64,000 nucleotides of DNA from Candidatus Daviesbacteria bacterium. Its GTDB lineage: Bacteria > Patescibacteriota > Microgenomatia > Daviesbacterales > UBA10151. Position numbers and translations under genes: made by a program. Below are positions 1 to 48,316 of this stretch, piece by piece; the stretch's first letter is position 1; every line of letters starts with the position of its first letter. Location of the stretch: positions 12,477 through 76,476 of the forward strand of contig JACPKP010000011.1 in NCBI GenBank assembly GCA_016186955.1, given 5' to 3'. The notes under the pieces are model-generated. The model was not told the DNA's origin, searched no databases, and saw only the letters and a program-made list of their open reading frames with translations.

Positions 1-595
1 GATGGGTTACAACGAGTACATTTCTCTTTACAAATTCCCTGACTAACATATCATTAAAACGACTGACTCTTGCCCTAACATCAGGTATGTTTTCACCCTG
101 CGGAAACCTGTACCAATAGCCCCCCATAAGTTTTTCAAGTAGTTTTTGCTCAGGGTGGAATACATAGAAAATTTTCCTGTCATTATAAAGCAGGCACAAA
201 CCATGCTCCCTTTCCCTCATCCTCTCTTCCTCTTTTATTTCAACTTTCGCCAGATCAGGCCAACCCCTTTTCATATGTTCAAAAGTGTCTTTGGTTCTTC
301 TATACGGAGACACAAAAATGATATCAGGCAACTTTATTAATGTTGAAAGCTTTTTTGCCATTTCCTCTGCCTGCCAACCGGCGCCCGGCGCCAAAGGGGT
401 ATTGTGGTCACTGACTTTTATTGAAAGCTCTTCCCTGACTTTTTCTGCAAAAAACCTTGTTGCTTTTGAAAGATGATTTTCTTCATAAGCTTTTAAAAAC
501 CTCTGGTATAAGGGATTATCCTTTTTATTTTTCTTAAACTCATTGTATGCTGAGATATCATGCCTTACCAGGGTTAGTGTTTCAGGCCATTTCAT
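1..595 (-). CDS. Histidine phosphatase superfamily protein (phosphoglycerate-mutase-like), 3' end truncated by window edge
   Basis: Manual translation of the minus strand from the ATG at 595: MKWPETLTLVRHDISAYNE...LVVTH. This carries an N-terminal RHG-type motif (VRHD) and a C-terminal VVTH motif typical of branch-1 histidine phosphatases. It is absent from the ORF track because its stop lies outside the window. Confidence 0.45.
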   Translation of the reverse strand, partial: MKWPETLTLVRHDISAYNEFKKNKKDNPLYQRFLKAYEENHLSKATRFFAEKVREELSIKVSDHNTPLAPGAGWQAEEMAKKLSTLIKLPDIIFVSPYRRTKDTFEHMKRGWPDLAKVEIKEEERMREREHGLCLLYNDRKIFYVFHPEQKLLEKLMGGYWYRFPQGENIPDVRARVSRFNDMLVREFVKRNVLVVTH

Positions 596-21609: not shown

Positions 21610-21642
21610 CAGCGAGCCGCTCTACCATTGAGCTACCGAGGA
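21568..21642 (-). tRNA. tRNA-Asn (anticodon GTT)
   Basis: The reverse-complement folds as a cloverleaf: acceptor TCCTCGG/CCGAGGA, anticodon loop CTGTTAA, T-loop TTCGAAT, encoded CCA. Confidence 0.8.
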
Positions 21643-21740
21643 TTGTTAAGGTACTTTAGCAATTCTACCATCTAGCAGGCTTGAAATCCACCCTAACCAA
21701 AATAGCATGTCTGGGGTATAATTTTATAGTTACATAAAAA

Positions 21741-22448: not shown

Positions 22449-22449
22449 T

Positions 22450-23544: not shown

Positions 23545-23663
23545 TATATTAAATTTTCAATTTTTAGTTTTTAATTTTTAATGAATTTTCAATAATTATT
23601 TTTCTAAACATTGGAACATTTGAATTTGATTTAAAATTTTAAATTTCAAATTAAAAATTATCT

Positions 23664-25436
23664 TCATAGATTCTTAAGTTTTATTGACAAATCCCTAAAC
23701 CGTTTGTTAAGTATACCCAACTGTTCCATATTATCAAATTCCTGTGCACTTTTAATCTGCAAAGATAATTTTTCCAGTGATGTTTTGATCAATGTCTTTT
23801 TAAGCTGGGTTACTACCAGGTTTAATTCTTTCTGCCAGTTTTCCAGATCAGTTAATTTATCATCAATTGGCATTAAATACAACTTGTCTACTTCGGCCAC
23901 CAGACTCTCGGGTACTTTTTTGATAAATTCCGATATCTTAAAGGATTTGGCCTTAAATGAGATTGAGTCTAAAAAGAGGACCAACAGGACATAAATTTGC
24001 CTTAATTCTTCTGATAAAAAAAGTGTCTCCGGAAATGAAGGGACAAAGGTATGTTGCAAAGGGATATGCAACATTAATGCTATTAAATACGCCTCCAGCA
24101 GTTCCCTTCTGCTATAAGGCTCTACCTTTCTAACTTGTGTTTGGTCTTCTCTCAACACCTTAAATTCAGGCTTCAACTTGTCCATCTCCTCTTTGATAAC
24201 ATCATCTTTAATTTGAAGCAGGGCCGCCAGTTTTTGGGTGTAGTGCTCTTTGACTATCGGGTCTGAAATTTTCCTGAATATTGGCATCAACTCCGCAGAA
24301 ATAGCTTTTTTAGAGCTGGCTGATTTAATACCATATCTTTGGTTTGCTGACTGGAGGTAGTAATCATAAATCGGCTCTGCTTTTAAAACATTTTGCAACC
24401 ATTGCTGGGGGTTTTTGAGACAAAGTTCAGCAGGATCCTTGGCGCCTTCAATTTTTATTACCTTGATGTTTAAACCAGCTTTATCAGCTATCTCAATCCC
24501 TCTTCTGGAAGCGCTGTCTCCTGCTAAATCTGTATCAAAACACAGGCTGATGGCATCTGCCTGTTTTTTCAAAGACTCTATCTGCTGTTCTGTCAAAGCA
24601 GTCCCTTTTGAGGCAACTACATTTTTTACCCCAACCTGATACGAAAAAAGCATATCCATCTCCCCTTCCACTAAAATTGCTTCTTTGCTTTTGCGTATGT
24701 CCGGTTTGGAGATATGCAGGCCGAATATAAACTTCCCTTTGTCAAATACCGGAGTTTGCGGGGTATTAATATATTTTGGCTCCCCATGGTCTATAATCCT
24801 TCCTGAAAACCCCACAATCCTGCCTCTTATATCGATTAAAGGAAACGTGATCCGCCCCCTAAACCTGTCATAACAACTGCCTTTAGACGGCACACAAAGC
24901 CCGGAGATTATCAGGTCCTGGATACCAAACCCCCTTTTCTTTAAAAAATTTGTCAGTGATTCCCAATTTTGCGGGGCATAACCTATACCAAACTGTTCAA
25001 TAGTCTCTGCTTTTAAACCTCTTTTTTGAAGATACCCTAGGGGCTTTTTACCCAAGGGGTGTTTTAAGAGGATGTGCTGAAAAAACTGCTGGGCTTTTTG
25101 GTTGACAAGGTAGATCTGCTCATTTGAATCTTTTTTTTTGCCTGTTTTTTGCAATACAACCCCTGCTTTTTGGGCTAAAATTTCCAGGCTTTCAGGGAAA
25201 GTCAACCCTTCCTTCTCCATCACGAATTTGAAGATATCCCCGCCACGGTCGCAGCCAAAACAATGCCAAATCTGGCGTTCCGGGGATACCACAAAAGAAG
25301 GGGTCCGTTCGTTATGGAATGGGCAATTAGCTTTAAAATTTACACCTGCTTTTTTTAGGGGAAGATATTCCGAGATTAAATCTACAACATTAATCTTTTG
25401 CTTGATAAGTTCGGTGTCGTCCATGCCTTTTATCAA
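23664..25436 (-). CDS. dnaG: DNA primase DnaG
   Basis: Zinc-binding CPFHNERTPSFVVSPERQIWHCFGC, TOPRIM segment EGEMDMLS. Sits downstream of rpoD in the classic operon order. Confidence 0.85.
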   Translation of the reverse strand: MIKGMDDTELIKQKINVVDLISEYLPLKKAGVNFKANCPFHNERTPSFVVSPERQIWHCFGCDRGGDIFKFVMEKEGLTFPESLEILAQKAGVVLQKTGKKKDSNEQIYLVNQKAQQFFQHILLKHPLGKKPLGYLQKRGLKAETIEQFGIGYAPQNWESLTNFLKKRGFGIQDLIISGLCVPSKGSCYDRFRGRITFPLIDIRGRIVGFSGRIIDHGEPKYINTPQTPVFDKGKFIFGLHISKPDIRKSKEAILVEGEMDMLFSYQVGVKNVVASKGTALTEQQIESLKKQADAISLCFDTDLAGDSASRRGIEIADKAGLNIKVIKIEGAKDPAELCLKNPQQWLQNVLKAEPIYDYYLQSANQRYGIKSASSKKAISAELMPIFRKISDPIVKEHYTQKLAALLQIKDDVIKEEMDKLKPEFKVLREDQTQVRKVEPYSRRELLEAYLIALMLHIPLQHTFVPSFPETLFLSEELRQIYVLLVLFLDSISFKAKSFKISEFIKKVPESLVAEVDKLYLMPIDDKLTDLENWQKELNLVVTQLKKTLIKTSLEKLSLQIKSAQEFDNMEQLGILNKRFRDLSIKLKNL

Positions 25437-25542
25437 TTATCCAGTCGCCCCTACGTTCAGTTTACATGAACGTAGTTTAGCCACCAGACATTGATGTGGG
25501 CAAATTTTAACCTAAAATAGAAAATAATGCAAGTTTGGGGTC

Positions 25543-25866
25543 TTGCCAAAAAAAATATTATATAGTAAGTTAGTATTGAATATGTTTCCTGAAGCACCAA
25601 AAGAAAATCCCAAAAAAGAATATTCAGTACAAGAATTGATAATAATAAAAGAACAATTTGCAGATGAATTTATGAATGTTCCTGGTGTAAATGGGATTGG
25701 AGTTGGAATAGCTGATGTTTCACACAAAGATGTTGGTGTGGTTTTATTCTTGGAGAGAATGCCTAAAAAAGATTCTGATCTTAACCGTTTAATCAGTGTA
25801 GCTAGAAAATTACCTGAAGATGTTTTATTACACATAAGACAGATCGGAACAATTAGAGCTTTATAA
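25543..25866 (+). CDS. Hypothetical small protein
   Basis: ORF only, divergent from dnaG. Confidence 0.25.
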   Translation: MPKKILYSKLVLNMFPEAPKENPKKEYSVQELIIIKEQFADEFMNVPGVNGIGVGIADVSHKDVGVVLFLERMPKKDSDLNRLISVARKLPEDVLLHIRQIGTIRAL

Positions 25867-25918
25867 TCCTTAATTTAACTTCCCATTTATAATTTTAATC
25901 GCTATAATATGACCATTT

Positions 25919-26010
25919 GGAGGGGTCGCATAGTGGTCTAGTGCGCTTGCTTGGAAAGCAGGTGTCCGATGAACATCGGACCGTGGGTTCAAATCCCACC
26001 CCCTCCGCCA
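25919..26010 (+). tRNA. tRNA-Ser (anticodon GGA)
   Basis: GGAGGGGTCGCATAGTGG...; anticodon loop TTGGAAA; long variable arm TGTCCGATGAACATCGGAC; T-loop TTCAAAT; acceptor CCCCTCC-G-CCA. Confidence 0.8.
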
Positions 26011-26013
26011 AGT

Positions 26014-26625
26014 TCAGATTTCAGAATTCGAATTTCGGACATCAGATATTAAAAGCAGGTATTCCCTGTTTCCTCCGCTTCCCAAAATCGGTGACTCAAT
26101 AGAATTAACAATATTGAATGATAAATTATGAATTTTATCTTTAACACTGTTTACAACCTCTTCCAATTCCTCATCTTTTACAACTCCTTTTACTCTTTGC
26201 TGTTCAAAAGCCTCATATTGGGGCTTAAGTAAGGCAATAATGATTCCGTCTTTTTTCAAAAACTTTCTCACAACCGGAAGCACTAATTCCAACTTAGTCC
26301 ACCCCGCATCAATGGTAATAAGATCCACTTTATCCACCTCGCCACCATCTAAGGTGTTTTCAGACCCACCCTCCAGGTGAGGCAAATGCAATATGTTTGT
26401 GCGTTCCATCACCACCACCCTGGGATCATTCCTCAGCTTCCATGCCAACTCACCATAAGAGGTATCCACTGAATAAATTTTTGCTGCCCCATTTTGCAAA
26501 AGACAGTCCACAAACCCGCCAGTTGAAGACCCAACATCCAAACAACTGAAATTTTTAATTTTTAATTTGAAATTTTCAATTGCATGCTGGAGTTTAATCC
26601 CACCGCGGGAAACAAATTGATTCAT
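26014..26625 (-). CDS. tlyA: TlyA-family rRNA 2'-O-methyltransferase (FtsJ fold, no S4 domain)
   Basis: VSRGGIKLQHAIENF and SAM motif CLDVGSSTGGFVDCLLQNGAAKIYSVD. Confidence 0.6.
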   Translation of the reverse strand: MNQFVSRGGIKLQHAIENFKLKIKNFSCLDVGSSTGGFVDCLLQNGAAKIYSVDTSYGELAWKLRNDPRVVVMERTNILHLPHLEGGSENTLDGGEVDKVDLITIDAGWTKLELVLPVVRKFLKKDGIIIALLKPQYEAFEQQRVKGVVKDEELEEVVNSVKDKIHNLSFNIVNSIESPILGSGGNREYLLLISDVRNSNSEI

Positions 26626-26713
26626 AATCTTAAAACGAAAATCGTAAAACTCAAATCTACATTTAAAAATTTAAAGTTTGAAAGATTTTAAATTTTAGAT
26701 GTAATTTTGACAT

Positions 26714-27139
26714 TTAGGATTTGAGATTTAACATTTTTAAGGCTTTTTCTAAAAGTTTCTTGTCATTTTGGAAACTGAGCATTTTCATGGCTTCCTTGGG
26801 CTCAACCCATTTTGCATCAAGAAGTTCTGAAGGCTGGTGTTTCAACTCACCACCCGTATATTTCATCAAGTAAATAATCACAATCTTAAAAATCCTTTCT
26901 TCGCCTTTGCCAAAGACATATTTTGAATCCCCAACCTTATCCACTATCTCCACTTCTACCCCGGTTTCCTCGCTTACTTCCCTTAAGGCTGCTTCTTTAC
27001 TTGATTCTTTACCCTCAATATGGCCTTTGGGAAACCCCCAATATACTGTCCTGGCATCCCTAATGGATGAGTTTTGTATGAGTAAAGCTTCCCCCTTATT
27101 ATTAAACACTATCCCTCCTGCAGAAAATTCTCGCTTCAC
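26714..27139 (-). CDS. NUDIX hydrolase
   Basis: Nudix box GFPKGHIEGKESSKEAALREVSEETGV. Confidence 0.65.
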   Translation of the reverse strand: MKREFSAGGIVFNNKGEALLIQNSSIRDARTVYWGFPKGHIEGKESSKEAALREVSEETGVEVEIVDKVGDSKYVFGKGEERIFKIVIIYLMKYTGGELKHQPSELLDAKWVEPKEAMKMLSFQNDKKLLEKALKMLNLKS

Positions 27140-27390
27140 CTATAAATATCCTTTCTATGGTCAACAATATGAATAACCAAATTTTTGTCCTCTACATCAA
27201 AAGCTACACGATAATTACCTATTCTAAATCTATACTTTCCCATCTGTATATTATTTAAGGTTTCTGCAAATTCAATAGGGTTTTGCTGGCTGCAAAAAAA
27301 ATCCAGTTTCTCAATAATTCTTTGTTGGATTTCTTTTGGTAATTTTCTGAAGTGCTTAAATGAAGATTTGGTAAATTGATAATCAAACAT
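27136..27390 (-). CDS. RelE/ParE-family toxin
   Basis: 84 aa, basic, ...YRVAFDVEDKNLVIHIVDHRKDIYR C-terminus typical of RelE/ParE. Overlaps the upstream antitoxin by 4 nt. Confidence 0.5.
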   Translation of the reverse strand: MFDYQFTKSSFKHFRKLPKEIQQRIIEKLDFFCSQQNPIEFAETLNNIQMGKYRFRIGNYRVAFDVEDKNLVIHIVDHRKDIYR

Positions 27391-27675
27391 TTATACTAAA
27401 CCTAACATTTTTTTAACCTGAACGGATGAATAACGGACTTTATCTGCTCTTGATTTCGCAATTCTTTTTAAATAATTTTCAGAAGATAAAGCTTCTAAAT
27501 CTTCCAGGAAAGATTCCCAAACATTATCAGGGACCAGTACACCTAAAGGTTTATTATTGCGCATTACCCTAATAAACTTACCTTTTTTTTCTGCAGTTTT
27601 AAAGATTTTAGTCAAACCTGCCTGGGCTTTTTGGACGCTGGTGAATTCTTCATCGTTAATCAGTTGTCTTTGCAT
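27391..27675 (-). CDS. Antitoxin (Phd/YefM-like)
   Basis: Small acidic protein immediately upstream of the toxin, on the same strand. Confidence 0.4.
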   Translation of the reverse strand: MQRQLINDEEFTSVQKAQAGLTKIFKTAEKKGKFIRVMRNNKPLGVLVPDNVWESFLEDLEALSSENYLKRIAKSRADKVRYSSVQVKKMLGLV

Positions 27676-27728
27676 ATGTAATAATTATTACAGAATTATG
27701 ACAGATTGTCAACACTGCGCAAAACTTT

Positions 27729-27800
27729 GCGCCCCCGGCGGGAATCGAACCCACATATCAGGATCCGGAATCCTGTGGTCTATCCGTTAGCCTACGGGGG
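27729..27800 (-). tRNA. tRNA-Arg (anticodon CCG)
   Basis: Reverse-complement GCCCCCGTAGGCTAACGGATAGACCACAGGATTCCGGATCCTGATATGTGGGTTCGATTCCCGCCGGGGGCG; anticodon loop TTCCGGA; no encoded CCA. Confidence 0.75.
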
Positions 27801-27950
27801 CATCCAATGCTCTAAGATAACAAAGTCTGTTATTAAAACAACGATTTTAATAACAAGCGACGTTATCGCAAACTTTGTTTATCCATTAAGCTACAGGTGC
27901 AAAACGAAATCCTGCGGTCTAAAATATCGTAGTGTTTTTGTATTTTACCA

Positions 27951-28235
27951 TCAAGGATAGACTTTTATATGCCCGCCGATTGCTAAAAAGCTTACCGTAT
28001 TTTTACCTGCTATCTTGTAAACAATTCTTACATCATCATTGATACTAAAAGCCCACAAACCTTTCATTTTTTTTCTAAGAGGATGGTTGTGTAATCTTGT
28101 ATCGTCTGGGTTCCGCTCAAACAACCTGACTTTCTCATTAATAACTGCTTCAAGACCCGGAGATTCTTTTAGTAGGGTCTTTAAAAATGGGACGTAGTCT
28201 CTGGCATATTTAATCTTAACCATGCTTCTGCTCAC
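27951..28235 (-). CDS. RelE/YoeB-like toxin
   Basis: 94 aa; overlaps the RHH partner. RelE-like ...DDVRIVYKIAGKNTVSFLAIGGHIKVY C-terminus. Confidence 0.45.
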   Translation of the reverse strand: MSRSMVKIKYARDYVPFLKTLLKESPGLEAVINEKVRLFERNPDDTRLHNHPLRKKMKGLWAFSINDDVRIVYKIAGKNTVSFLAIGGHIKVYP

Positions 28236-28506
28236 GATGGTTCTTTAAAGGATAGTTCATCACAAACTGAGAGAAAGGCGTTTTGCCATCCCACTCGATA
28301 TATTCCTGGTTGGAATCATTGGCTATTTGTAGCACTTCTTCTTCAAACTCTGAGGTGAATCCATTTTCAGTCAATTCGGGGTACAAAAACCGCCGCAAAG
28401 CATCACGAAAGAGCTCACTGATTGATGTATAACCCTTACCGGCTACCGCTTTCTTAGCGTCGGCATGGAGAGATTTTGGGAGTGAGATGTTAATCGTAGT
28501 TGTCAT
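28216..28506 (-). CDS. RHH/ParD-like antitoxin
   Basis: INISLPKSLHADAKKAVAGKGYTSISELFRDALRRF is RHH-like. Confidence 0.45.
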   Translation of the reverse strand: MTTTINISLPKSLHADAKKAVAGKGYTSISELFRDALRRFLYPELTENGFTSEFEEEVLQIANDSNQEYIEWDGKTPFSQFVMNYPLKNHREQKHG

Positions 28507-28558
28507 AGTATCATTGTATGGTTTTCATACAAACTTTGTCAACTATTACTATCTCCTG

Positions 28559-28645
28559 CGGTGGGGGTGGGATTTGAACCCACGAAGGACTTTCGCCCTT
28601 TCCGGTTTTCGAAACCAGTGCACTCGGCCACTATGCGACCCCACC
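28559..28645 (-). tRNA. tRNA-Ser (anticodon CGA)
   Basis: Reverse-complement GGTGGGGTCGCATAGTGGCCGAGT...; anticodon loop TTCGAAA; long variable arm; T-loop TTCAAAT. Confidence 0.75.
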
Positions 28646-28654
28646 ATGTGCACC

Positions 28655-28765
28655 CCCGAAAGGATAATATACCCACCGACTAAAGTCGGTGAGCGAACCT
28701 TCGAGGATAGCGCGCCCGGCGGGACAACATACCACTCGCCTCCGGCGAGTAGCGAACCTGCCAGG
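28655..28765. repeat. Duplicated tRNA-Arg 3'-end fragment plus two hairpin-agcgaacct units
   Basis: gcacccccgaaaggat at 28654-28669 repeats the tRNA-Arg 3' end at 28766-28781. Between the copies: ccaccgactaaagtcggtgagcgaaccttcgagg and ccactcgcctccggcgagtagcgaacctgccagg (hairpin followed by agcgaacct, twice). Confidence 0.55.
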
Positions 28766-28839
28766 CACCCCCGAAAGGATTCGAACCTTCGACCTCAACG
28801 TCCGCAACGTTGCGCTCTAATCCACTGAGCTACGGGGGT
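28766..28839 (-). tRNA. tRNA-Arg (anticodon GCG as read)
   Basis: Reverse-complement ACCCCCGTAGCTCAGTGGATTAGAGCGCAACGTTGCGGACGTTGAGGTCGAAGGTTCGAATCCTTTCGGGGGTG; anticodon loop TTGCGGA. GCG is an unusual Arg anticodon, so the isoacceptor call is tentative. Confidence 0.6.
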
Positions 28840-28899
28840 ACTGTGTGTATTTTACCTTATTGACTTATAAAAATCATAAGTTTAATATCTTAAATTGTA

Positions 28900-29220
28900 A
28901 TGTCTCCTGAACAGAGGGAAATAGTAGGTAAACCATTTGAGGAGGTTTGCGGAATTAAAGATATTTTTGTTGAAAAATATTTGCGACCATTCTTTTATGA
29001 TTATGAATACCCCTTGAATGGTGCAGGAGTTGGCCTGTCTAACTACAATAGGGGCCGTGCACGCTTTGTGATAAGTGTTAATACCCTCCAAAAACCTACC
29101 TCAGAATTTTTAAAGTCTCTAAGTTTACCAAGGAAATCATTCAAAGGAGTGCCTGTAAAATACCAACTTTTTGCTGGGTTTAGGGCTGCCGCGGACAGCA
29201 GAAACCAACTGTTTGAATGA
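28900..29220 (+). CDS. Hypothetical protein
   Basis: ORF only. Confidence 0.2.
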   Translation: MSPEQREIVGKPFEEVCGIKDIFVEKYLRPFFYDYEYPLNGAGVGLSNYNRGRARFVISVNTLQKPTSEFLKSLSLPRKSFKGVPVKYQLFAGFRAAADSRNQLFE

Positions 29221-29353
29221 GCAAAGAAAATTTAGATCCGAACAGGGCATATTTTGAGTAGAGTCACAGCTTTGGATAACGGACCTGTGTATAGCTATGG
29301 TGGACCGGAAGAAGAGTTCTATCCAAAGGGCAAAAAACGGTTTTGTTAAGATT

Positions 29354-29995
29354 TCATCTGTGGGGGTTCTCCAGCGGAAAATGTTTCTGCAGGCTGTCTG
29401 ACCATTTTTCCATCATAGTTTTTGGCGCGATCTCATGAAAAGGCAGGTATCTTGCGCAGGTATTCCTGACCTCCTCTTCACTGACATCTGAACCCAAAAC
29501 AAGGATCAACACACCGGGAAAATTTATCCTTGTCAAAACATGTAGGAGTTTATGCCCGTCTTTTTCGGAAAACCAGAAAGAGTCAAGTTCCTGCCAGTGG
29601 TAAAAATGGTCTCCTATGGTAACACCCTGTGTAGATATTTTATAGCCAACATCTTCAGGGGAGATAAAATTTAAAACATAAACCAGAAAACCCAAGGCTA
29701 ATATCGCCCCTACCAGAATCTTTTCCCCTGCTAAAAAGACTATCATTGAGGTTAAAACGATTAATACTGCAACTGTAGTATAAAAAGAGCGGTCTTTTTT
29801 CCTGAATGGCCGGGACGGGGCTTTCCAAGATAGCAGAGTCCTGACAGGATCATAATCAAAAAAAGGGTCGCTTTGCTGAACATCTTCGGCAGGGAGCTCC
29901 TCCGCAGGTTTTATGGGATTTGGGAGTTCCTTTTCAGGGTCAATCGAACTGGGCAACTCCGGTGTAAGCAGGTCTTTTTCGAAATATTCGGGCAT
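29354..29995 (-). CDS. Hypothetical membrane protein (two TM helices)
   Basis: MPEYFEKDLLTPELP... acidic N-terminus, two TM helices. The heptamer repeat begins 8 nt upstream of the start codon. Confidence 0.4.
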   Translation of the reverse strand: MPEYFEKDLLTPELPSSIDPEKELPNPIKPAEELPAEDVQQSDPFFDYDPVRTLLSWKAPSRPFRKKDRSFYTTVAVLIVLTSMIVFLAGEKILVGAILALGFLVYVLNFISPEDVGYKISTQGVTIGDHFYHWQELDSFWFSEKDGHKLLHVLTRINFPGVLILVLGSDVSEEEVRNTCARYLPFHEIAPKTMMEKWSDSLQKHFPLENPHR

Positions 29996-30003
29996 TAGGG
30001 ATA

Positions 30004-30031
30004 GTGTAAAGTGTAAAGTGTAAAGTGTAAA
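30004..30031. repeat. Heptanucleotide tandem repeat (GTGTAAA)x4
   Basis: gtgtaaagtgtaaagtgtaaagtgtaaa, 8 nt upstream of the ATG of 29354..29995 (minus strand). Confidence 0.8.
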
Positions 30032-30040
30032 GTAGTAACC

Positions 30041-30595
30041 CTAACTTAATTGGGCCCTAATAGCGCTGATAATCAGCGGATAATAGTTATGGGGGACGAA
30101 TTTTTTGCTCAAAATAGGATCAGTAACCTCTTTTTCAAACCGGTCAACAGGCTCAAACTTCACCTTCCCCACCTCCCCATCCTTAAAATCCAGTTCTTTC
30201 ACAGCACCGTCAAACTGAAACAAATAAAGATGGTTCAGTTCATTGTTTTGGAACCCTGGTTTACCAGAAATCCTGTATTTCTGTTTTTGGATCTTCACTT
30301 TTTTTAACAGCTTGGGGTCTATTTTTATACCAAGCTCCTCTGATAACTCCCTTATTGCAGCGCCATCAGGGGTTTGCCCTGCAGAAATATGCCCTGCGCA
30401 GGATATATCCCAAAGCCCGGGGTAAACATATAGGTTATCTGCCCGCTTTTGCAGAAGCACTTCACCTTTTTTGTTGTACATCCAGATGTGGACTGTGGCA
30501 TGCCAGGAACCGTCGCTGTGCGCCAGGTTTCTGGATTTCACCCTGCCTGTTTTATTGCCTTTTGCATCAAGGATATCCAAAAGTTCATCAGGCAT
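30041..30595 (-). CDS. NUDIX hydrolase (IPP-isomerase-like subtype)
   Basis: Start set at MPDELLD. Nudix box GLWDISCAGHISAGQTPDGAAIRELSEELGI. Confidence 0.6.
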   Translation of the reverse strand: MPDELLDILDAKGNKTGRVKSRNLAHSDGSWHATVHIWMYNKKGEVLLQKRADNLYVYPGLWDISCAGHISAGQTPDGAAIRELSEELGIKIDPKLLKKVKIQKQKYRISGKPGFQNNELNHLYLFQFDGAVKELDFKDGEVGKVKFEPVDRFEKEVTDPILSKKFVPHNYYPLIISAIRAQLS

Positions 30596-30678
30596 GTTAC
30601 GGTAGTACATTATACCAAGTTTTGCAAACAATATCACATTGTGATATTGACATATGATATAATAGTAAATATAATTCA

Positions 30679-30960
30679 ATGATGCTAAACGCCAATATTG
30701 TGCCCGCCAGAAATCTTCAAAAATCTTACAAATCCATTATTGAAGAAGTAAAGAAAAAAAAGAAGGCAGTGGTTTTAACAACCAATAACCAGCCGCAAGC
30801 CGCCATTGTGAGTCTTGAGGATTTAGAAAAACTACAACAGACTAAAGCACAACAAGGGACTGCTGAAATGCTAAATTTTGTGGAGGAACACAAAGAAGAA
30901 CTGAAAGAACTACCAGCAAATTTACGCGAAATTGCAGATGATATCCTATATAGCAAATGA
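30679..30960 (+). CDS. Phd/YefM-type antitoxin
   Basis: Beta-strand KAVVLTTNNQPQAAIVSLEDLEKLQ typical of Phd/YefM. 4-nt overlap with the PIN gene. Confidence 0.55.
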   Translation: MMLNANIVPARNLQKSYKSIIEEVKKKKKAVVLTTNNQPQAAIVSLEDLEKLQQTKAQQGTAEMLNFVEEHKEELKELPANLREIADDILYSK

Positions 30961-31400
30961 TTAAAAAAGTGGTTATAGATTCTGATGCTATATATGCAAT
31001 TTATAACCATAATGATCCTTTACATAGTAAGGCAATTAAAACTTTACAGCTGTTGAATAAAACCCAAGTTCAATTAATTTATCCTACTTCGGTTATTTTT
31101 GAAGTCATGTCTTTATTCCAAAGAGTTCTCTCAGCACCTTCAGTAACAATAAAGATGGTAGATTTAATTAGCAGAGATCTTTTAATAATCTATGCAATAG
31201 ACAATGAGCTGCTTAAAGAAGCTACGAATATCTTTAAACCAGCTGGAAGTGAGCAAGCTCCTTCCTTCGGAAGTAAAAAGAATACCTTAGTGGATTGCTC
31301 AGTAGTGGCTGTGGCTAAAAAAATAAAAGCAGATGGTGTATTTTCTTATGATGAGTTTTATAAAAAACAAGGTCTAAAATTAGCTGAAGATTTAATTTAG
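30957..31400 (+). CDS. vapC: PIN-domain toxin (VapC), paralog of 2938..3348
   Basis: IKKVVIDSDAIYAIY; C-terminus FSYDEFYKKQGLKLAEDLI resembles 2938..3348 (FSFDKFYKSKGFKLASEL). Confidence 0.65.
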   Translation: MIKKVVIDSDAIYAIYNHNDPLHSKAIKTLQLLNKTQVQLIYPTSVIFEVMSLFQRVLSAPSVTIKMVDLISRDLLIIYAIDNELLKEATNIFKPAGSEQAPSFGSKKNTLVDCSVVAVAKKIKADGVFSYDEFYKKQGLKLAEDLI

Positions 31401-31555
31401 CCTTCTAAATTCTTCCAAAATCTCCCTCGGCGGTACCTGGTTGCCTGCCATCCATAGCTTTAGCAAGGGATGGACTATGTTGGAACCTTTTATCAAATCT
31501 CAACACAGCAAAAGGCCTTTGTTAACACATTAATTGTACGATAAAATTAGTTTTA

Positions 31556-32065
31556 GTGACCAATAATGATTTCCTCAACTATCTATTCAATCTACAACCT
31601 ACTTGGGTAGCATTGCTTATCTTTTTATGGGGAGTTGGGTCGTTATTGATTGTTGCCGCAAAAACTAAAACAATAAAAACTGTCCTTTTTAAAAATCCCG
31701 GAATTGTAGTAGGAGACTTTTTTCTCTTGCCCATAGCAGGAGGTTTGATAACTTTCTTCTATCAACAGGTTACTAACCCCGTACCCGTAAATAATCCTTT
31801 GTGGACCCTTTCTATAATGTTTATTAGCCTACTTTTAACTATATTCTCGGCATTAAGATTTAAACTGCTCAACATTTTATGGCTACCTCATGGACTGTTT
31901 TATTTATTCATGAGTTATATTGTCTTAACTTTTATAAGTAAAGGACTGTGGCAACTCATACATGGTGGTACCCCACTATTATGGTTAATATGGATATTAG
32001 TCGTATTTGCTGTTACAACTCACCAACTCTTAGGTATTTTATGGTCAAAAAAGTTTCCTCTGTAA
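31556..32065 (+). CDS. Hypothetical polytopic membrane protein
   Basis: Five hydrophobic helices. Confidence 0.4.
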   Translation: MTNNDFLNYLFNLQPTWVALLIFLWGVGSLLIVAAKTKTIKTVLFKNPGIVVGDFFLLPIAGGLITFFYQQVTNPVPVNNPLWTLSIMFISLLLTIFSALRFKLLNILWLPHGLFYLFMSYIVLTFISKGLWQLIHGGTPLLWLIWILVVFAVTTHQLLGILWSKKFPL

Positions 32066-32223
32066 AAAAGTTTTGGTTGGAACCTGTTAAAAACTGCCTT
32101 TTTAGGCACAAATTGATGATATTGATAAAAAATGCCCTAAAAAATGATTGGGTTGGTTGGAACTTACCCTTAAGGGAAATATAGCCTGGTAAAACTGACT
32201 AGCTAAGGTTATTGTTAATCTTT

Positions 32224-32460
32224 TCATATAAATCTCTTTTTTAAAAATGCTCTTCCAGAACCAGACTTTAGATATTTCTCAAAACCATAAGCCTTATATT
32301 TATCTGTAAAAACTAAATAAGTTATCAATTTGACAGGTAATCTACTCTTGGTTGCTGGTACCCATCCGGACTCATGCCGTTTTAAGCGTTCATCTAAATT
32401 ATCTGTACATCCAACATAAGTCTTTTCATCATTACAAGTTAATATGTAAACATACCACAT
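32224..32460 (-). CDS. GIY-YIG nuclease domain protein (UPF0213/Slx1-like)
   Basis: Start set at MWYVYILTC: WYVYILTCNDEKTYVGCTDNLDERLKRHE is a textbook GIY-YIG. The longer ORF N-terminus is read from the repeat sequence. Confidence 0.6.
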   Translation of the reverse strand: MWYVYILTCNDEKTYVGCTDNLDERLKRHESGWVPATKSRLPVKLITYLVFTDKYKAYGFEKYLKSGSGRAFLKKRFI

Positions 32461-32464
32461 ATCA

Positions 32465-32820
32465 TTTATCTTAGCGGACTTTGTCCGTGCGCCGACGCTG
32501 AAGCTCTGGCGCAAGCGTCCGAAGCTCGCCATACAATCTCGCCGTCGCTAAAGCTATGGCGAGCGAATTCCTCTTTCGCGTACTTGGCGGATTTTATCCG
32601 CCGAAGTCCGCTTCAGCGGACGAAGGCGGAGGGGGTGAGATTCGAACTCACGGAGAGCTTGCGCCCTCAGAAGTTTTCAAAACTTCCGCACTAGGCCACT
32701 ATGCGACCCCTCCATCAAACTTTAATCTTTGAGGTCGCATAGGTACATTAGATAGTAAAGCACCGCTTGACGGTGCGGCTATCGCAAGAAACGAAGTTTC
32801 TTATGCGACCTCTCCATTCC
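32465..32820. repeat. Segmental duplication unit 1 (tRNA-Ser flanked by conserved 60-nt and 100-nt blocks)
   Basis: gcggactttgtccgtgcgccgacgctgaagctctggcgcaa (32465-32524) and atcaaactttaatctttgaggtcgcatag...cttatgcgacctctcca (32714-32815) recur at 32916-32975 and 33098-33199. Confidence 0.7.
32627..32713 (-). tRNA. tRNA-Ser (anticodon TGA)
   Basis: Reverse-complement GGAGGGGTCGCATAGTGGCCTAGTGCGGAAGTTTTGAAAACTTCT...; anticodon loop TTTGAAA; long variable arm. Confidence 0.75.
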
Positions 32821-32915
32821 GGATGTCAGATGTCAAAAATCGGATTTCGGATCAGTACAATTTTATCCGATTTATCCGAGATCTGATTTCCGATATCCGA
32901 AATCCGAACTTGGCG

Positions 32916-33199
<284 letters not shown>

Positions 33200-44932: not shown

Positions 44933-45843
44933 TTAGTAAATTTCAAATTTCAAATTTCAAATTTCAAATTTCTTTATTTTTCCTTTTTACTTTTTCCTTT
45001 TTACTTTTTCCTTTACATGCTTTTGCCAGCCATTGTGATGCCTCAGGTAATTTTACCTCACTAAACAGCTACTGCGACCCCTCCACCAACACCATCTGGC
45101 AAGATGAGGTTGACTGCACCCATGCTGACACTGGCACAGCCTGCGCTATCCCCGCACCTGCAACCTGTCTGTACAATGAAACCTGTGACGCAGGACCGGG
45201 CCCTGCCAGCGGGGAACACACTTGCACAGGCACTAACCCAAATGAAGCCGGGCAACCCCAGTGCGGATATAACAGTGCAGTTGACCCTGCCTGCACAGCC
45301 TGCACAGCCAAAACACCTCCTGCGCCACCTGTTCCACCTCCAGCCCCGCCAGCTCCACCTGCTGGCGCCACCCCAACAGCAGCCATAGCTACAGAAAGCG
45401 CTGAGGAAGCAGCCATCAGGCATATGGATACAGGGTTAAAACCTGAGGAATTACCACAAGAAGCAGACGAGAAACCAGGGATCATCCAAATCATAGGGGA
45501 TTTTTTTAGCAATATAGGGAGGTTATTAAACAGAATGGTATCTTTTTTCCAAAATTCTCAGGGTTTGCAAACAGCCGAGCTTCCTGAACAAAATTGTAAA
45601 TCAAGCGATCCTGATAGTGCAGTAAGTAACTTTTTAGGGGATAGTGATTGTAAAGGAATCTATAACAGCACAACACCTGATGAACAAATTTTACCGAATG
45701 GAATAAAAGTCAGGGTTGGTAATATTGATATCCCAAAAACTGAACAGGCGAATGCTAAAGAGGAGGGTTTTGAGGATGCGTTTTTACCTGAAGGATGTAA
45801 TAAAATAACTACCGGTGATTGTAATATACCTATTAGCCCATAG
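44929..45843 (+). CDS. Secreted Cys-rich, Pro-rich protein
   Basis: Start set at MISKF. Signal peptide, Cys-rich module, PAPPVPPPAPPAPPA linker, second Cys-containing module. Confidence 0.4.
   Translation: MISKFQISNFKFQISLFFLFTFSFLLFPLHAFASHCDASGNFTSLNSYCDPSTNTIWQDEVDCTHADTGTACAIPAPATCLYNETCDAGPGPASGEHTCTGTNPNEAGQPQCGYNSAVDPACTACTAKTPPAPPVPPPAPPAPPAGATPTAAIATESAEEAAIRHMDTGLKPEELPQEADEKPGIIQIIGDFFSNIGRLLNRMVSFFQNSQGLQTAELPEQNCKSSDPDSAVSNFLGDSDCKGIYNSTTPDEQILPNGIKVRVGNIDIPKTEQANAKEEGFEDAFLPEGCNKITTGDCNIPISP
44938..44972. repeat. Heptanucleotide tandem repeat (TTTCAAA)x4 inside the first codons of 44929..45843
   Basis: aaatttcaaatttcaaatttcaaatttcaaatttc encodes SKFQISNFKFQIS. Confidence 0.85.
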
Positions 45844-46504: not shown

Positions 46505-48316
46505 ATGGCTGCCCGGGAGTTGGTTATTAGTTCATGGTTTGTAGTTTATAGAAAAATTTTTCTCTTTTTTGTTTTACTTGTTACTTGTTACTTGTTACTT
46601 GTTACTTATCTTCCGCCCGCTTTTGCCCAGGGAACACCTCCTGCAGCAGGTACAACTTCTGCAGCCGGTACAACCCCTGCAGCTGCCCCCTGGAACGCCC
46701 AAAACCAGTCCAATTTCACCTCTCAAACCCTCCAACATGCAATCCTTTGCGACCTGGTATTTATGAGCCCATTGGGCAGGTGTGTCGGCTTTGAAAAAGA
46801 CCCGTCCAAAAAAGACGGTGTTAAAGTAAGCCTGTACGGACCGCAGTTCGGGGGAGCGCTGGGAAGTTTGACTAATATGGCGGTTGCCCTTTACCAACCC
46901 CCAACCTCCACAGTTTATTACCTGGCTGATGTGGCCAAAGGGTTTGGGATTATCACCCCAGCCTATGCCCAGGTTACCGGCTCAGGAGCAGGGATTATAG
47001 AACCTGTTAAAAAACTGTGGGAGGTGATGCGCAATTTTGCTTATCTGGCATTTATTATTATCTTTTTGGCGATCGGTTTTATGATCATGTTCAGGCAAAA
47101 ATTAAACGCCCAGACGGTTTTGACAGTCCAGGCAGCATTACCGGGGCTGGTACTGAGCCTAATCCTGGTATTTTTAAGTTATTTTATTGCAGCTTTTTTA
47201 ATTGACCTGGCTTTTTTAAGCGTCCAGATCCTGGCTTGGCTTTTTATACAAAACGGGCTGGCAAACTCTTTTGGTGATGCAGCGGGAATACAAAGCCTGG
47301 CCCAAAATTCTAATATCCTGGAACTATTTAAAAACAGCTTCCGGTTTGAAGCATTTGGAGAGGTTACGGGTGGAGTATCCGGTACTGTAAATTCAGTGTT
47401 TGGCGGGTCTGCTGCAGGACCAAATGCTTTGGCTATTATCATACCTGCAATTATCGGTTCAGTTATTGCATTTTTTATTTTTCCACCTGGAGGTTTGGTC
47501 GCACTTGGTGTTACTGCTGGTGGTGGAGCTGCTGCCGGCCTTTTGGCGCCTCTTATAATAGGCCTGCTCGTGCCTTTAATATTAATTATTGCCTTGGCTA
47601 TCCAGTTTTTTAAACTGCTTTTTAAGCTGATCATGGCTTATGTCATGTTGCTGGTGACAACAATCCTCGGCCCGCTGCTGATTTTAGTCAGCGCAGTACC
47701 CGGTAAAGGAACGTCATTGTCTTTTTGGTGGAAAAACCTGCTGGGTAATGCCCTGGTTTTTCCTGCTGTATTCGGGACTTTTTTATTTGCAGGGATGATC
47801 CTGGCCACAGACCCTTCAGCTTGGAAAGCCAGCCCCCCGCTTTTTGGCGGGCTCTCCACCGAACTTTTGAGGCTGATCATCGCTTACGGGATAATACTGG
47901 GCACACCAGCTGTACCTGATATGGTAAAAAAGATGATAGGAGCAGGGGATCTTGGAGAGATAGGCAAAACAGGCGCAGCCGGGTTCTTTGCAGGGTTTGG
48001 GGTAGGCAAGGGTGCAGGGACAGCTGGAGTTAATAGATTACTGGCGCCAACTATGCAACTTAGAAATGAGCGCAGAACCTTGCAAGAACAGGCCGCTCTT
48101 GGTAAGTTAGGTCCATTGGGTGAGGCAAGGCTTGCGGCGCTTCAAAGAGGCGCTTATAATGTTTATCCAACAGGGAAAAAGAACAAACAGGGTGAATATG
48201 AGAGGGATACCGAAGGTAACCTGGAAACCGAATCAAGGGGTAGAACATGGTGGCCAAGCAAGATCCAAAGATGGCTGGTTGAAACCGGAAATAAAGCCTG
48301 GTCAGGAAAAAAATAA
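46505..48316 (+). CDS. Polytopic Gly-rich membrane protein, VirB6/TrbL-like candidate
   Basis: Signal peptide, at least six TM helices and Gly-rich loops. Position within the T4SS-like locus. Family call by topology only. Confidence 0.35.
   Translation: MAARELVISSWFVVYRKIFLFFVLLVTCYLLLVTYLPPAFAQGTPPAAGTTSAAGTTPAAAPWNAQNQSNFTSQTLQHAILCDLVFMSPLGRCVGFEKDPSKKDGVKVSLYGPQFGGALGSLTNMAVALYQPPTSTVYYLADVAKGFGIITPAYAQVTGSGAGIIEPVKKLWEVMRNFAYLAFIIIFLAIGFMIMFRQKLNAQTVLTVQAALPGLVLSLILVFLSYFIAAFLIDLAFLSVQILAWLFIQNGLANSFGDAAGIQSLAQNSNILELFKNSFRFEAFGEVTGGVSGTVNSVFGGSAAGPNALAIIIPAIIGSVIAFFIFPPGGLVALGVTAGGGAAAGLLAPLIIGLLVPLILIIALAIQFFKLLFKLIMAYVMLLVTTILGPLLILVSAVPGKGTSLSFWWKNLLGNALVFPAVFGTFLFAGMILATDPSAWKASPPLFGGLSTELLRLIIAYGIILGTPAVPDMVKKMIGAGDLGEIGKTGAAGFFAGFGVGKGAGTAGVNRLLAPTMQLRNERRTLQEQAALGKLGPLGEARLAALQRGAYNVYPTGKKNKQGEYERDTEGNLETESRGRTWWPSKIQRWLVETGNKAWSGKK
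46574..46608. repeat. Heptanucleotide tandem repeat (TTACTTG)x4.9 (same unit as 40460-40494) in signal-peptide codons of 46505..48316
   Basis: ttacttgttacttgttacttgttacttgttactta encodes LLVTCYLLLVTY. Confidence 0.85.

What the first reader, a model, noticed from the sequence alone, without database searches (positions are those of the whole stretch)
30004..30031. (GTGTAAA)4 heptamer repeat 8 nt upstream of a membrane-protein start codon
The repeat lies in the RBS and 5' UTR position of ORF 29354..29995 (minus strand), where unit-number changes would alter promoter-to-RBS spacing or the leader. Together with the three coding-region 7-mer tracts, this suggests a genome-wide use of heptamer slippage as a switch.
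Basis: seen in the sequence. Interest (0 to 1): 0.5.

Follow-up and report, generated by a model that had tools for sequence, protein, structure and literature searches.

The report
Heptamer repeat that is itself a promoter
A perfect four-unit 7-base repeat in an uncultivated groundwater bacterium (Candidatus Daviesbacteria) lies in no ribosome-binding site or leader: it spells out the whole promoter (-35 box, 17-base spacer, -10 box) of a leaderless membrane-protein gene, and it belongs to a lineage-wide excess of 7-base repeats at gene starts for which no switching could be shown.

Summary
A perfect (GTGTAAA)x4.4 array lies at 30003-30033, 8 nt from the ATG at 29995 (minus strand). Period 7 is the only period of 5-12 with perfect arrays of 4 or more units (4 found, about 0.003 expected).

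The gene has no Shine-Dalgarno motif and no room for a leader. In 32 of 73 orthologues it is preceded by TTTACA-N17-TA[AC]ACT-N6-12-ATG. In gene sense the array reads TTTACA-N17-TACACT-N7-ATG, so it is the promoter of a leaderless mRNA.

The unit TTTACAC carries both boxes at an offset of 23 = 21+2. Any array of 4 or more units therefore regenerates the same geometry, 3 units weaken the -35, and 2 or fewer abolish the promoter. It is not a spacing switch.

Across 1.1 Mb of Daviesbacteria DNA, period 7 and period 14 arrays dominate. All 14 perfect arrays lie at gene 5' ends (P=4e-8), many in signal peptides. However, orthologous arrays keep the same length across at least 9 species, all coding arrays are in frame, and copy numbers cluster at 4-5.

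Slippage-made and promoter-constrained is well supported. An ON/OFF switch is untested and less likely.

The parts
30003..30033 (-). Perfect heptamer array. Gene sense: AC(TTTACAC)x4 T, 4.4 units. + strand: (AGTGTAA)x4.4.
   Evidence: 0.003 such arrays expected per window
30026..30031 (-). Predicted -35 box TTTACA (first full unit of the array)
   Evidence: promoter scan: minus 30031..30003, TTTACA-17-TACACT, 9/12; the same hexamer sits at the same distance from the ATG in 32 orthologues
30009..30025 (-). 17-nt spacer CTTTACACTTTACACTT, made of array units 1-4
   Evidence: the spacer is exactly 17 in all 33 matching promoters; L061 carries the same spacer with 3 substitutions
30003..30008 (-). 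Predicted -10 box TACACT (end of unit 4 plus the first T of the partial fifth unit)
   Evidence: TACACT is the -10 in 6 orthologues and TAAACT in 26
29996..30002 (-). 7 nt (ATCCCTA) between the -10 box and the ATG. There is no Shine-Dalgarno motif. The predicted transcription start is at or 1 nt before the A of the ATG.
   Evidence: this distance is 7 or 8 nt in 23 of 33 promoters; inference from the standard sigma-70 distance between the -10 box and the start site
30034..30040 (-). Degenerate unit GGTTACT..(TTACTAC) directly 5' of the array. It would supply a weak -35 (TTACTA) if one unit were lost.
29354..29995 (-). Gene driven by the array: a conserved Daviesbacteria protein of 213 aa (HYW46_06645) with a disordered N-terminus, a two-helix membrane hairpin and a PH-like C-terminal domain
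   Evidence: no Pfam or NCBIfam family
30041..30679 (-). Upstream co-directional NUDIX hydrolase gene. Its TAG stop (30043-30041) lies 9 nt before the -35 box.
   Evidence: PF00293, E=3.5e-19; the same gene order occurs in L195 and L001
40458..40494 (-). Coding heptamer array (TTACTTG)x5.3, forming the h-region of the signal peptide of a SpoIID/LytB-domain protein (MRKTILPFLLLVTCYLLLVTFPIHA). In frame.
44938..45014 (+). Coding arrays (AAATTTC)x5 then (TTTACTTTTTCCTT)x3, forming the whole signal peptide of a secreted Cys/Pro-rich protein (gene 44929-45843). In frame.
46574..46607 (+). Coding heptamer array (TTACTTG)x4.9 in the N-terminal signal or anchor region of a multi-TM protein (gene 46505-48316). 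Same unit as 40458-40494, in inverted orientation.

Best explanation
The array is the sigma-70-type promoter of a leaderless mRNA for the membrane-protein gene. It is written entirely in tandem copies of the gene's own -35 motif.

The unit TTTACAC contains a -35 hexamer (TTTACA). Together with the next T it also contains a -10 hexamer (TACACT). Three units are 21 nt, and the two hexamers are offset by 2 nt within the unit, so unit i and unit i+3 are always 23 = 6+17 nt apart. That is a canonical 17-nt spacer. The last -10 ends 7 nt before the ATG, so transcription should begin at or next to the start codon and no ribosome-binding site is needed.

The array most likely arose by heptamer-biased replication slippage or homogenisation. 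The seed would be the proto-repeat ACTTTACACTTT that forms the -35 region in many orthologues. It has been kept at the shortest length (4 units) that still gives a complete promoter.

It therefore acts mainly as an ordinary constitutive promoter. Extra units would add in-phase upstream promoters without moving the main one. Loss of one unit would weaken it, and two or fewer units would abolish it.

Shown: the repeat, its non-randomness, the conserved promoter grammar in orthologues, and the exact fit of the array to that grammar. Inferred: promoter activity, the leaderless start, the slippage origin, and the effects of changing unit number.
For: (1) Upstream of 32 of 73 orthologues lies TTTACA-N17-TA[AC]ACT-N6..12-ATG. 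The spacer is 17 in every case. The -10 box is TAAACT in 26 and TACACT in 6. Most of the remaining orthologues have TGTATAAT or TATAAT 7-10 nt before the ATG.

(2) The window reads TTTACA-17-TACACT-7-ATG, and the independent consensus scan also reports it.

(3) The closest relative with the same gene order is L195 (76% aa). It has a non-repeated promoter with identical distances: TTTACA-cttttaactttttattc-TAAACT-agcatta-ATG.

(4) Orthologue L061 has the same array in decayed form (80% matches). Its three differences from the window all fall in the spacer, and both hexamers are intact.

(5) Only 0.2-0.4% of random heptamer arrays placed at this position reproduce the grammar.

(6) The layout is normal for this genome. 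Five other long ORFs in the window have TTGACA-17-TAnnnT-6..10-ATG. A -10-like hexamer ends 5-9 nt before 21 of 60 starts (background 12%), while SD-like motifs occur at 7 of 60 (background 9.6%). A canonical RpoD is encoded in the window.

(7) The -35 region of many orthologues is already 1.6-1.9 units of the heptamer. L028 carries an expansion of a 6/7-identical unit at the same place.

(8) Heptamer-specific arrays are lineage-wide. A heptamer slippage bias has been proposed for bacteria in general (PMC4692102, citing Mrazek 2007).
Against: - No transcription start has been mapped. All promoter evidence is consensus matching plus comparative conservation.
- TACACT/TTTACA is only a 9/12 match to the E. 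coli consensus.
- The gene lies 45 nt downstream of a co-directional NUDIX gene with no terminator between them, so read-through transcription cannot be excluded.
- The L028 array (ACTTTTC x3.7) at the same position does not form recognisable boxes, so not every array at this site is a promoter.
- A TTTACAC-type array also occurs inside a pilin-like coding region in L066, so the unit is not specific to promoters.
- The route by which the array replaced the spacer and -10 box without changing any distance is not explained by simple expansion.
Confidence: 0.68

Rival explanations
1. Phase-variable (contingency) promoter. The array is kept perfect because slippage between 4 and 3 units, or 5 units, reversibly turns the membrane protein down and up. 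It would be one locus of a Daviesbacteria-wide heptamer 'phasome' that also frameshifts the signal peptides of secreted and cell-wall proteins, in the manner of the CTCTT repeats in Neisseria opa leader peptides.
For: - The array sits at exactly the threshold length. In silico, 4 or more units give 9/12, 3 units give 7/12, and 2 or fewer give no promoter.
- All 14 perfect arrays are at gene 5' ends.
- Five of them recur in one gene family (the SpoIID-like signal peptide) with different units.
- Arrays are conserved at nucleotide level (86%) while their flanks are not (48%). Substitutions inside them are mostly non-synonymous. That pattern fits repeated loss and gain cycles that homogenise the units.
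- The targets are envelope or secreted proteins, as in known contingency loci.
Against: - No copy-number difference was seen at any orthologous array: (CTTACTA)4.1 has the same length in at least 9 species, and the window and L062 arrays have the same length.
- All 8 perfect coding arrays are in frame.
- Copy numbers are 3-6 with no long tail. Experimentally variable 7-bp tracts, as in H. influenzae hmw, are much longer.
- Gain of units does not change the promoter geometry, so the 'switch' works in one direction only.
- A length of exactly 4 is also what contraction bias plus selection for a working promoter would give.
- No strain or read data were available.
Confidence: 0.2
2. Neutral by-product. 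Heptamer-biased slippage leaves arrays wherever sequence constraint is low, such as intergenic spacers and signal-peptide h-regions. This one merely fills the 45-nt gap of a NUDIX-membrane protein operon, and its promoter-like reading is a coincidence.
For: - Heptamer over-representation is a known mutational feature of many bacteria (PMC4692102).
- Degenerate heptamer arrays fill several other intergenic regions of the window.
- There is no terminator between the two genes.
- The L028 array at the same site is not promoter-like.
Against: - The array's ends coincide with the promoter's ends: 0 nt off at the -10 side and 2 nt off at the -35 side.
- It reproduces a grammar conserved in 32 orthologues, which only 0.2-0.4% of arrays would do.
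- L061 shows decay confined to the spacer.
- Both syntenic relatives (L195, L001) keep an internal promoter at the same distances.
- Without an SD motif, an internal cistron would be poorly translated.
Confidence: 0.07
3. RNA-level element. The gene is translated from the read-through NUDIX transcript, and the (UUUACAC)n tract is a G-poor, unstructured standby or S1-binding leader that enables SD-independent initiation.
For: - The tract has no G and is predicted to be unpaired. The whole region shows no significant structure (z=+0.44).
- SD motifs are rare in this genome.
Against: - It does not explain the conservation of two hexamers at fixed 17-nt spacing and fixed distance from the ATG in orthologues. 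Many of those orthologues follow a tRNA gene or a divergent gene rather than an ORF.
- Lack of structure is not specific to this tract.
Confidence: 0.03
4. Array of binding sites for a DNA-binding regulator (iteron-like direct repeats) overlapping the promoter.
For: - There are four identical direct repeats at a gene start.
- Arrays are conserved at nucleotide level in the SpoIID family.
Against: - Units differ between arrays within the same genome (TTTACAC, TTACTTG, AAATTTC) and between orthologues, so no single sequence-specific binder fits.
- A 7-bp phasing puts successive sites on different helix faces.
- No regulator gene is associated with the arrays.
Confidence: 0.02

Closest known systems
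7-bp (ATCTTTC) tandem repeats upstream of hmw1A/hmw2A adhesin genes of non-typeable Haemophilus influenzae (PMC8262952, PMC2424069)
   Same: A heptanucleotide tandem repeat lies immediately upstream of an envelope-protein gene. Slippage in unit number is the proposed or proven source of expression change.
   Different: The hmw tracts are long and lie downstream of the promoter, in the transcribed leader. Expression falls gradually as the number rises. Those points on hmw tract length and position rest partly on my own knowledge of that literature. Here there are only 4 units, they form the -35 and -10 boxes themselves, the mRNA is predicted to be leaderless, and no length variation has been observed.
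Promoter-spacer simple-sequence repeats in phase-variable genes (for example poly-G in Neisseria porA, poly-C in opc and Bordetella fim, TA repeats between hifA and hifB; from my own knowledge, reviewed in PMC11475388 and PMC4235727)
   Same: A simple-sequence repeat sits inside the core promoter of a surface-protein gene.
   Different: In those cases the repeat lies between fixed -35 and -10 boxes, so every unit change alters the spacing. Here both boxes are part of the repeat and 3 units equal the box-to-box offset minus 2. The geometry is therefore self-restoring for any length of 4 or more units.
Lineage-specific heptamer SSR excess: cyanobacterial STRR and GGGGA[CT]T repeats, Xanthomonas GGGAATC repeats (PMC4692102), TAACTGA repeats of Beggiatoaceae (PMC4679880)
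   Same: There is a period-7-specific excess of tandem repeats, mostly about 4 units long, concentrated near genes. A polymerase slippage bias has been proposed as the origin.
   Different: Those lineages use one or a few dominant units, mostly intergenic. Daviesbacteria use many different T-rich units. Over half of the perfect arrays are inside coding sequence (signal peptides) and are conserved in position and length across species.
CTCTT pentamer repeats in the signal-peptide coding region of Neisseria opa genes (from my own knowledge)
   Same: For the three coding arrays of the window: a repeat whose period is not a multiple of 3 encodes the hydrophobic core of a signal peptide, so a change of one unit would frameshift the gene.
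   Different: Copy number at opa genes varies between sibling cells and OFF alleles are common in genomes. Here all arrays seen are in frame and equal in length between species.
Leaderless-mRNA promoters (-10 box about 7 nt upstream of the start codon; common in Actinobacteria, Deinococcus and archaea; from my own knowledge)
   Same: The -10 hexamer ends 6-8 nt before the ATG, there is no SD motif, and the layout is frequent in the same genome.
   Different: Known examples are unique sequences, not tandem repeats. Leaderless initiation has not been described for Patescibacteria in the searchable literature.

Membership tests
Sigma-70-type promoter of a leaderless mRNA | -35 hexamer close to TTGACA and -10 hexamer of the form TAnnnT, separated by 17 +/- 1 nt | tested here: met
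   TTTACA (30031-30026), 17 nt, TACACT (30008-30003); 9/12 match with A2 and T6 present
Sigma-70-type promoter of a leaderless mRNA | -10 box ends about 6-9 nt before the start codon, with no Shine-Dalgarno motif between them | tested here: met
   7 nt (ATCCCTA), no GGAG-type motif; the true start is confirmed by the conserved N-terminus
Sigma-70-type promoter of a leaderless mRNA | The boxes are conserved in position in orthologues while the spacer varies | tested here: met
   32 of 73 orthologues have the same grammar and the spacer is always 17; L061's differences are confined to the spacer
Sigma-70-type promoter of a leaderless mRNA | Transcription start mapped at or next to the start codon | not testable with these tools
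   No transcriptome or 5'-end data are available for this uncultivated organism
SSR-mediated phase-variable (contingency) locus | Simple-sequence repeat in the promoter or 5' coding region of a gene, typically for an envelope protein | tested here: met
SSR-mediated phase-variable (contingency) locus | Repeat number differs between sibling cells, strains or close relatives | tested here: inconclusive
   No strain-level data were found. Between species, orthologous arrays have identical lengths, which argues against free variation. Frame and promoter constraints could hide it, however.
SSR-mediated phase-variable (contingency) locus | A change of one unit switches expression | tested here: inconclusive
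   In silico only: +1 unit leaves the core promoter unchanged, and -1 unit lowers the match from 9/12 to 7/12. For the coding arrays, +/-1 unit would frameshift the gene.
SSR-mediated phase-variable (contingency) locus | The tract is long enough to be hypermutable | tested here: inconclusive
   4.4 units (31 nt). Lineage arrays have a median of 4.4 copies and a maximum of 7.9. The experimentally variable 7-bp tracts known to me are several-fold longer, and no mutation rates exist for this lineage.
Heptamer-biased SSR excess (as described for many bacteria) | Tandem repeats of period 7 are over-represented relative to other periods and to composition-matched expectation | tested here: met
   Window: 4 arrays against 0.003 expected, none of 4 or more units at other periods. 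In 1.04 Mb of 74 related genomes: 10 perfect arrays of period 7 and none of periods 5, 6 or 8-15. TRF: 80 arrays of period 7 and 65 of period 14, against 25 or fewer for any other period.

The most novel reading that the evidence does not exclude
Daviesbacteria, and perhaps other Patescibacteria, maintain a set of short heptamer arrays as functional slippage devices at the 5' ends of envelope and secretion genes. These would include frameshift switches in signal peptides and a 'self-regenerating' tandem promoter whose unit carries both the -35 and -10 boxes. The arrays would be kept perfect over long periods by cycles of unit loss and regain. That would be a phase-variation system in an uncultivated, host-dependent, non-pathogen lineage where none has been described.
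Probability: 0.17. Interest if true: 0.7.

Novelty: new variant of a known kind. Interest (0 to 1): 0.5.

Why it matters
Simple-sequence repeats in promoters are a classic route to phase variation, but in every described case known to me the repeat sits between or beside fixed promoter boxes. Here the repeat unit carries both boxes, and the arithmetic (3 x 7 + 2 = 6 + 17) makes the promoter insensitive to added units. That is a compact natural example of how slippage can build, or rebuild, a promoter.

The result also gives comparative evidence that leaderless initiation from promoters abutting the ATG is a major expression mode in a Candidate Phyla Radiation lineage, where no transcription data exist.

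The lineage-wide pattern is unexplained. Heptamer arrays at gene starts and in signal peptides are conserved at nucleotide level and in length across species while their flanks diverge. This pattern can be tested directly with existing metagenomic reads. If the arrays do vary in populations, it would extend contingency-locus biology to ultra-small episymbiotic bacteria.

Tried and rejected
1. Exact-protein look-up of the membrane protein to find sibling contigs: nothing on record. Its 90% cluster has a single member.

2. Metagenome scan for (TTTACAC)x3: 120 hits, capped, from unrelated organisms of 29-65% GC. None encodes the orthologue.

3. Contigs of the closest protein homologues (P0002, P0008, P0020): no arrays. 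L195 did provide the key non-repeated promoter for comparison.

4. Survey of 120 SpoIID-like N-termini for in-frame +/-7-residue variants: many heptamer-derived h-regions but no clear length polymorphism.

5. RNA structure of the leader region: none (z=+0.44). A structured riboregulator was rejected.

6. Family assignment of the membrane protein: no Pfam or NCBIfam hit. Only weak PH/PTB-like fold matches were found (E about 0.02).

7. A general rule that every intergenic heptamer array is a promoter: rejected. The L028, L067, L012, L040 and L066 arrays do not form convincing -35 and -10 pairs (and inspection).

9. A single sequence-specific binding protein: rejected, because units differ between arrays.

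Full report
**1. The observation**

On the + strand, 30004-30031 is GTGTAAA x4 exactly as reported. Perfect 7-periodicity extends over 30003-30033 (4.4 units). TRF adds a degenerate fifth unit up to 30038.

In the sense of the gene (minus strand) the region reads:

TAG(stop of the NUDIX gene, 30043-30041) gg TTACTAC TTTACAC TTTACAC TTTACAC TTTACAC T atcccta ATG(29995) CCC GAA ...

The ATG is the real start. An alignment of 28 orthologues begins with M and, in 27 of them, with MP[KE][FY]F-like residues. The only in-frame codon run upstream ends at the NUDIX stop without another start codon.

The repeat is not a chance event. Perfect arrays of 3 or more units occur 4 times for period 7 in the window, against 0.003 expected from third-order Markov simulations. 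No array of 4 or more units exists for any other period from 4 to 12.

**2. Source and gene**

The protein is identical to HYW46_06645 of a Candidatus Daviesbacteria MAG (Patescibacteria/CPR) and is the sole member of its 90% cluster. It belongs to a well-conserved Daviesbacteria family of about 200 aa with no Pfam or NCBIfam assignment.

An AlphaFold model (pLDDT 70.7) shows a disordered N-terminus, a two-helix membrane hairpin (residues 71-108) and a beta-sandwich with weak PH/PTB-like fold matches.

The upstream gene is a NUDIX hydrolase. The window also holds seven tRNA genes, a canonical rpoD and a cluster of T4SS-pilin-like genes.

**3. What lies upstream of the orthologues**

I fetched 74 orthologous loci from different species (1.04 Mb) and five more contigs of close homologues.

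In 32 of 73 orthologues with enough upstream sequence, the ATG is preceded by TTTACA-N17-TA[AC]ACT-N6..12-ATG:
- The spacer is 17 nt in every case.
- The -10 box is TAAACT in 26 and TACACT in 6.
- The distance to the ATG is 7 or 8 nt in 23 of the 33 matching promoters, counting the window.

Most of the other orthologues carry TGTATAAT or TATAAT 7-10 nt before the ATG. No Shine-Dalgarno motif is present.

This is the layout of a sigma-70-type promoter that starts transcription at or next to the start codon, which gives a leaderless mRNA.

The layout is common in this genome:
- Five other long ORFs in the window have TTGACA-17-TAnnnT-6..10-ATG.
- A -10-like hexamer ends 5-9 nt before 21 of 60 ORF starts, against a 12% background.
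- SD-like motifs are not enriched: 7 of 60 starts, against a 9.6% background.

**4. The array is that promoter**

In the window the same grammar is written entirely by the repeat: TTTACA (30031-30026), a 17-nt spacer CTTTACACTTTACACTT, TACACT (30008-30003), 7 nt, then ATG. The independent consensus scan reports the same site.

The reason is arithmetical. The unit TTTACAC contains TTTACA at offset 0 and, with the next T, TACACT at offset 2. Three units (21 nt) plus 2 equal 23 = 6 + 17.

The array's ends nearly coincide with the promoter's ends. It is 0 nt off at the -10 side and 2 nt off at the -35 side.

Only 0.2% of all heptamer units reproduce the grammar when placed at this position. The figure is 0.4% when units are weighted by the window's base composition.

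Two relatives are especially informative:
- **L195** (76% aa identity, same NUDIX-to-membrane-protein gene order) has an ordinary promoter with identical distances: TTTACA-cttttaactttttattc-TAAACT-agcatta-ATG.
- **L061** has the same array in decayed form: TTTACA-ctttGcactttTcCctt-TACACT-tataatg-ATG. Its three differences from the window all lie in the spacer, where a promoter tolerates change, and both hexamers are intact.

**5. Origin**

In many orthologues the -35 region reads (C)ACTTTACACTT(T). That is already 1.6-1.9 units of the heptamer, a proto-repeat.

L028 carries a perfect (ACTTTTC)x3.7 array 6 nt before its ATG. Its unit is 6/7 identical to the window's and in the same register, although that array does not form recognisable boxes.

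So this site has been hit by heptamer slippage or homogenisation more than once. How the window's array came to replace the spacer and -10 box without changing any distance is not resolved. It could have been expansion followed by a compensating deletion under selection for a leaderless start. It could also have been homogenisation of an older, decayed array.

**6. Consequences of unit-number change (in silico)**

| Units | Predicted effect |
|---|---|
| 4 or more | Core promoter unchanged (9/12 match, 7 nt from the ATG). Each extra unit adds an in-phase promoter 7 nt further upstream. |
| 3 | The -35 position falls on the degenerate unit TTACTA (7/12). |
| 2 or fewer | No promoter. |

The array sits at the minimum functional length. 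That is what selection for a working promoter combined with a tendency of short arrays to contract would give. It is also the only state from which a single slippage event would have an effect.

**7. The wider claim: heptamer slippage as a genome-wide switch**

What is supported:
- **Period specificity.** The heptamer excess is lineage-wide. In the 74 related loci, perfect arrays of 3 or more units number 10 for period 7 and none for periods 5, 6 and 8-15. TRF finds 80 arrays of period 7 and 65 of period 14, against 25 or fewer for any other period.
- **Position.** All 14 perfect arrays (window plus loci) lie within -160..+130 nt of a gene start, against 30% of random positions (P=4e-8). The arrays are not fully independent, because five are in one gene family.
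- **Coding arrays.** Eight arrays are inside coding sequence, and seven of those encode the hydrophobic core of an N-terminal signal peptide. They are the three in the window and four in SpoIID/LytB-like orthologues. The eighth (L024) lies in the variable N-terminal region of a membrane-protein orthologue.

What is not supported is evidence of switching:
- In the SpoIID-like family, at least 9 species share a (CTTACTA)4 array at the same position and with the same length. They differ only by point substitutions. The window and L062 likewise share a (TTACTTG)5 array of equal length.
- All eight perfect coding arrays are in frame.
- Copy numbers cluster at 4-5 (median 4.4, maximum 7.9) with no long tail.
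- No strain-level or read-level data could be reached.

One unexplained point keeps the switch idea alive. The array nucleotides are much better conserved than their flanks: 86% pairwise identity against 48% upstream. The substitutions inside the arrays are mostly non-synonymous. So it is the DNA repeat, not the peptide, that is being maintained. Cycles of unit loss and regain would do this, and so would selection on an unknown nucleotide-level property.

**8. Comparison with what is known**

- Heptamer over-representation among bacterial SSRs, and a polymerase-slippage explanation for it, have been described. Examples are Xanthomonas, Nostoc, Calothrix and Beggiatoaceae (PMC4692102, PMC4679880).
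- 7-bp repeats upstream of the H. influenzae hmw adhesin genes modulate expression (PMC8262952, PMC2424069).
- Repeats in promoter spacers and in signal-peptide coding regions are textbook phase-variation devices (PMC11475388).
- I found nothing on heptamer repeats, or on leaderless initiation, in Patescibacteria.

The focal feature is therefore a new variant of a known kind: an SSR at a gene start in which the unit carries both promoter boxes and the geometry restores itself.

**9. Verdict**

The tracts are non-random and biased toward gene 5' ends. The array is neither an RBS nor a leader element and not a spacing switch, and switching is untested.
- Best explanation (0.68): a slippage-built, selection-maintained tandem promoter of a leaderless mRNA.
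- Main rival (0.2): a threshold-type phase-variable promoter within a lineage-wide heptamer system.
- Decisive tests: a read-level length census, transcription start mapping and a unit-number reporter series.

Noticed in passing
window 40455-40515 and 46550-46610: These form a 61-nt inverted repeat (85% complementary, 30 nt perfect) made of the two (TTACTTG)n arrays plus flanking signal-peptide codons of two divergent genes: the SpoIID/LytB-like gene at 38857-40518 (-) and the multi-TM gene at 46505-48316 (+). The arms bracket a 6-kb block holding five or six T4SS-pilin-like genes (PF18895). Recombination between the arms could invert the block or swap the two genes' 5' ends. Gene conversion could explain why both genes share one unit.
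   Followed up: partly
window 42972-43024 and 43036-43089: Two degenerate heptamer arrays (AATCTCA and AGATTTG, about 7.7 units each) are reverse complements. They fold into a hairpin with arms of about 50 nt (RNA MFE -30.6 kcal/mol, z=-4.9, 0 of 200 shuffles as stable). The hairpin lies between two pilin-like genes and ends 6 nt before the ATG at 43096. It may be a terminator, attenuator or mRNA-stability element built from heptamers. L040 has arrays with the same AGATTTG unit.
   Followed up: partly
window 23552-23582; L067 16385-16421: The rpoD gene (22450-23544, minus strand) has a degenerate (ATTAAAA)x4.4 array ending 7 nt before its ATG. In another species (L067), a perfect (CATGATA)x5.3 array sits 7 nt before the rpoD ATG. 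L040 and L066 have perfect arrays about 105 nt upstream of the adjacent dnaG. So heptamer arrays recur at the same promoter regions with unrelated units.
   Followed up: partly
L018, L057, L043, L042, L047, L044, L041, L063, L046 (SpoIID-like signal-peptide region); window 40458-40494; L062: The (CTTACTA)4 array is shared by at least 9 species at the same position and length. Pairwise identity is 86% in the array against 48% in the upstream flank, and the substitutions are mostly non-synonymous. This is nucleotide-level maintenance of a coding repeat without peptide-level constraint, and it is unexplained.
   Followed up: partly
window 44938-45014 (gene 44929-45843): The whole signal peptide (MISKFQISNFKFQISLFFLFTFSFLLFPLHAFA) is encoded by two abutting arrays, (AAATTTC)x5 and (TTTACTTTTTCCTT)x3. 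The gene's ATG overlaps the TGA stop of the preceding pilin-like gene (ATGA).
   Followed up: no
whole window (60 ORF starts): Shine-Dalgarno-like motifs are not enriched at gene starts (12% against a 9.6% background). A -10-like TAnnnT ending 5-9 nt before the ATG is enriched about threefold (35% against 12%). This suggests that leaderless mRNAs are a major expression mode in this Daviesbacteria genome.
   Followed up: partly
L066 269-300 (minus strand): A (CACTTTA)x4.6 array has the same unit class as the focal promoter array, but it lies inside a pilin-like gene and encodes the signal peptide IIALYTLTFTLYTPYASA. It is preceded by a 15-nt duplication (AAACTTAAAAGTAAA x2) in the n-region.
   Followed up: no
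L024 1336-1365: One orthologue of the focal membrane protein carries a perfect (CTACCAA)x4.3 array inside its variable N-terminal coding region (…LPTTNYQLPT…). It is in frame.
   Followed up: no
window 21500-33100: Seven tRNA genes (Asn, Ser x4, Arg x2) are interleaved with small toxin-antitoxin-like genes (PIN domain, RelE/ParE-like, antitoxin-like) and a GIY-YIG-like ORF. In many orthologous loci the focal gene's promoter directly abuts the end of a tRNA gene or another RNA gene.
   Followed up: no
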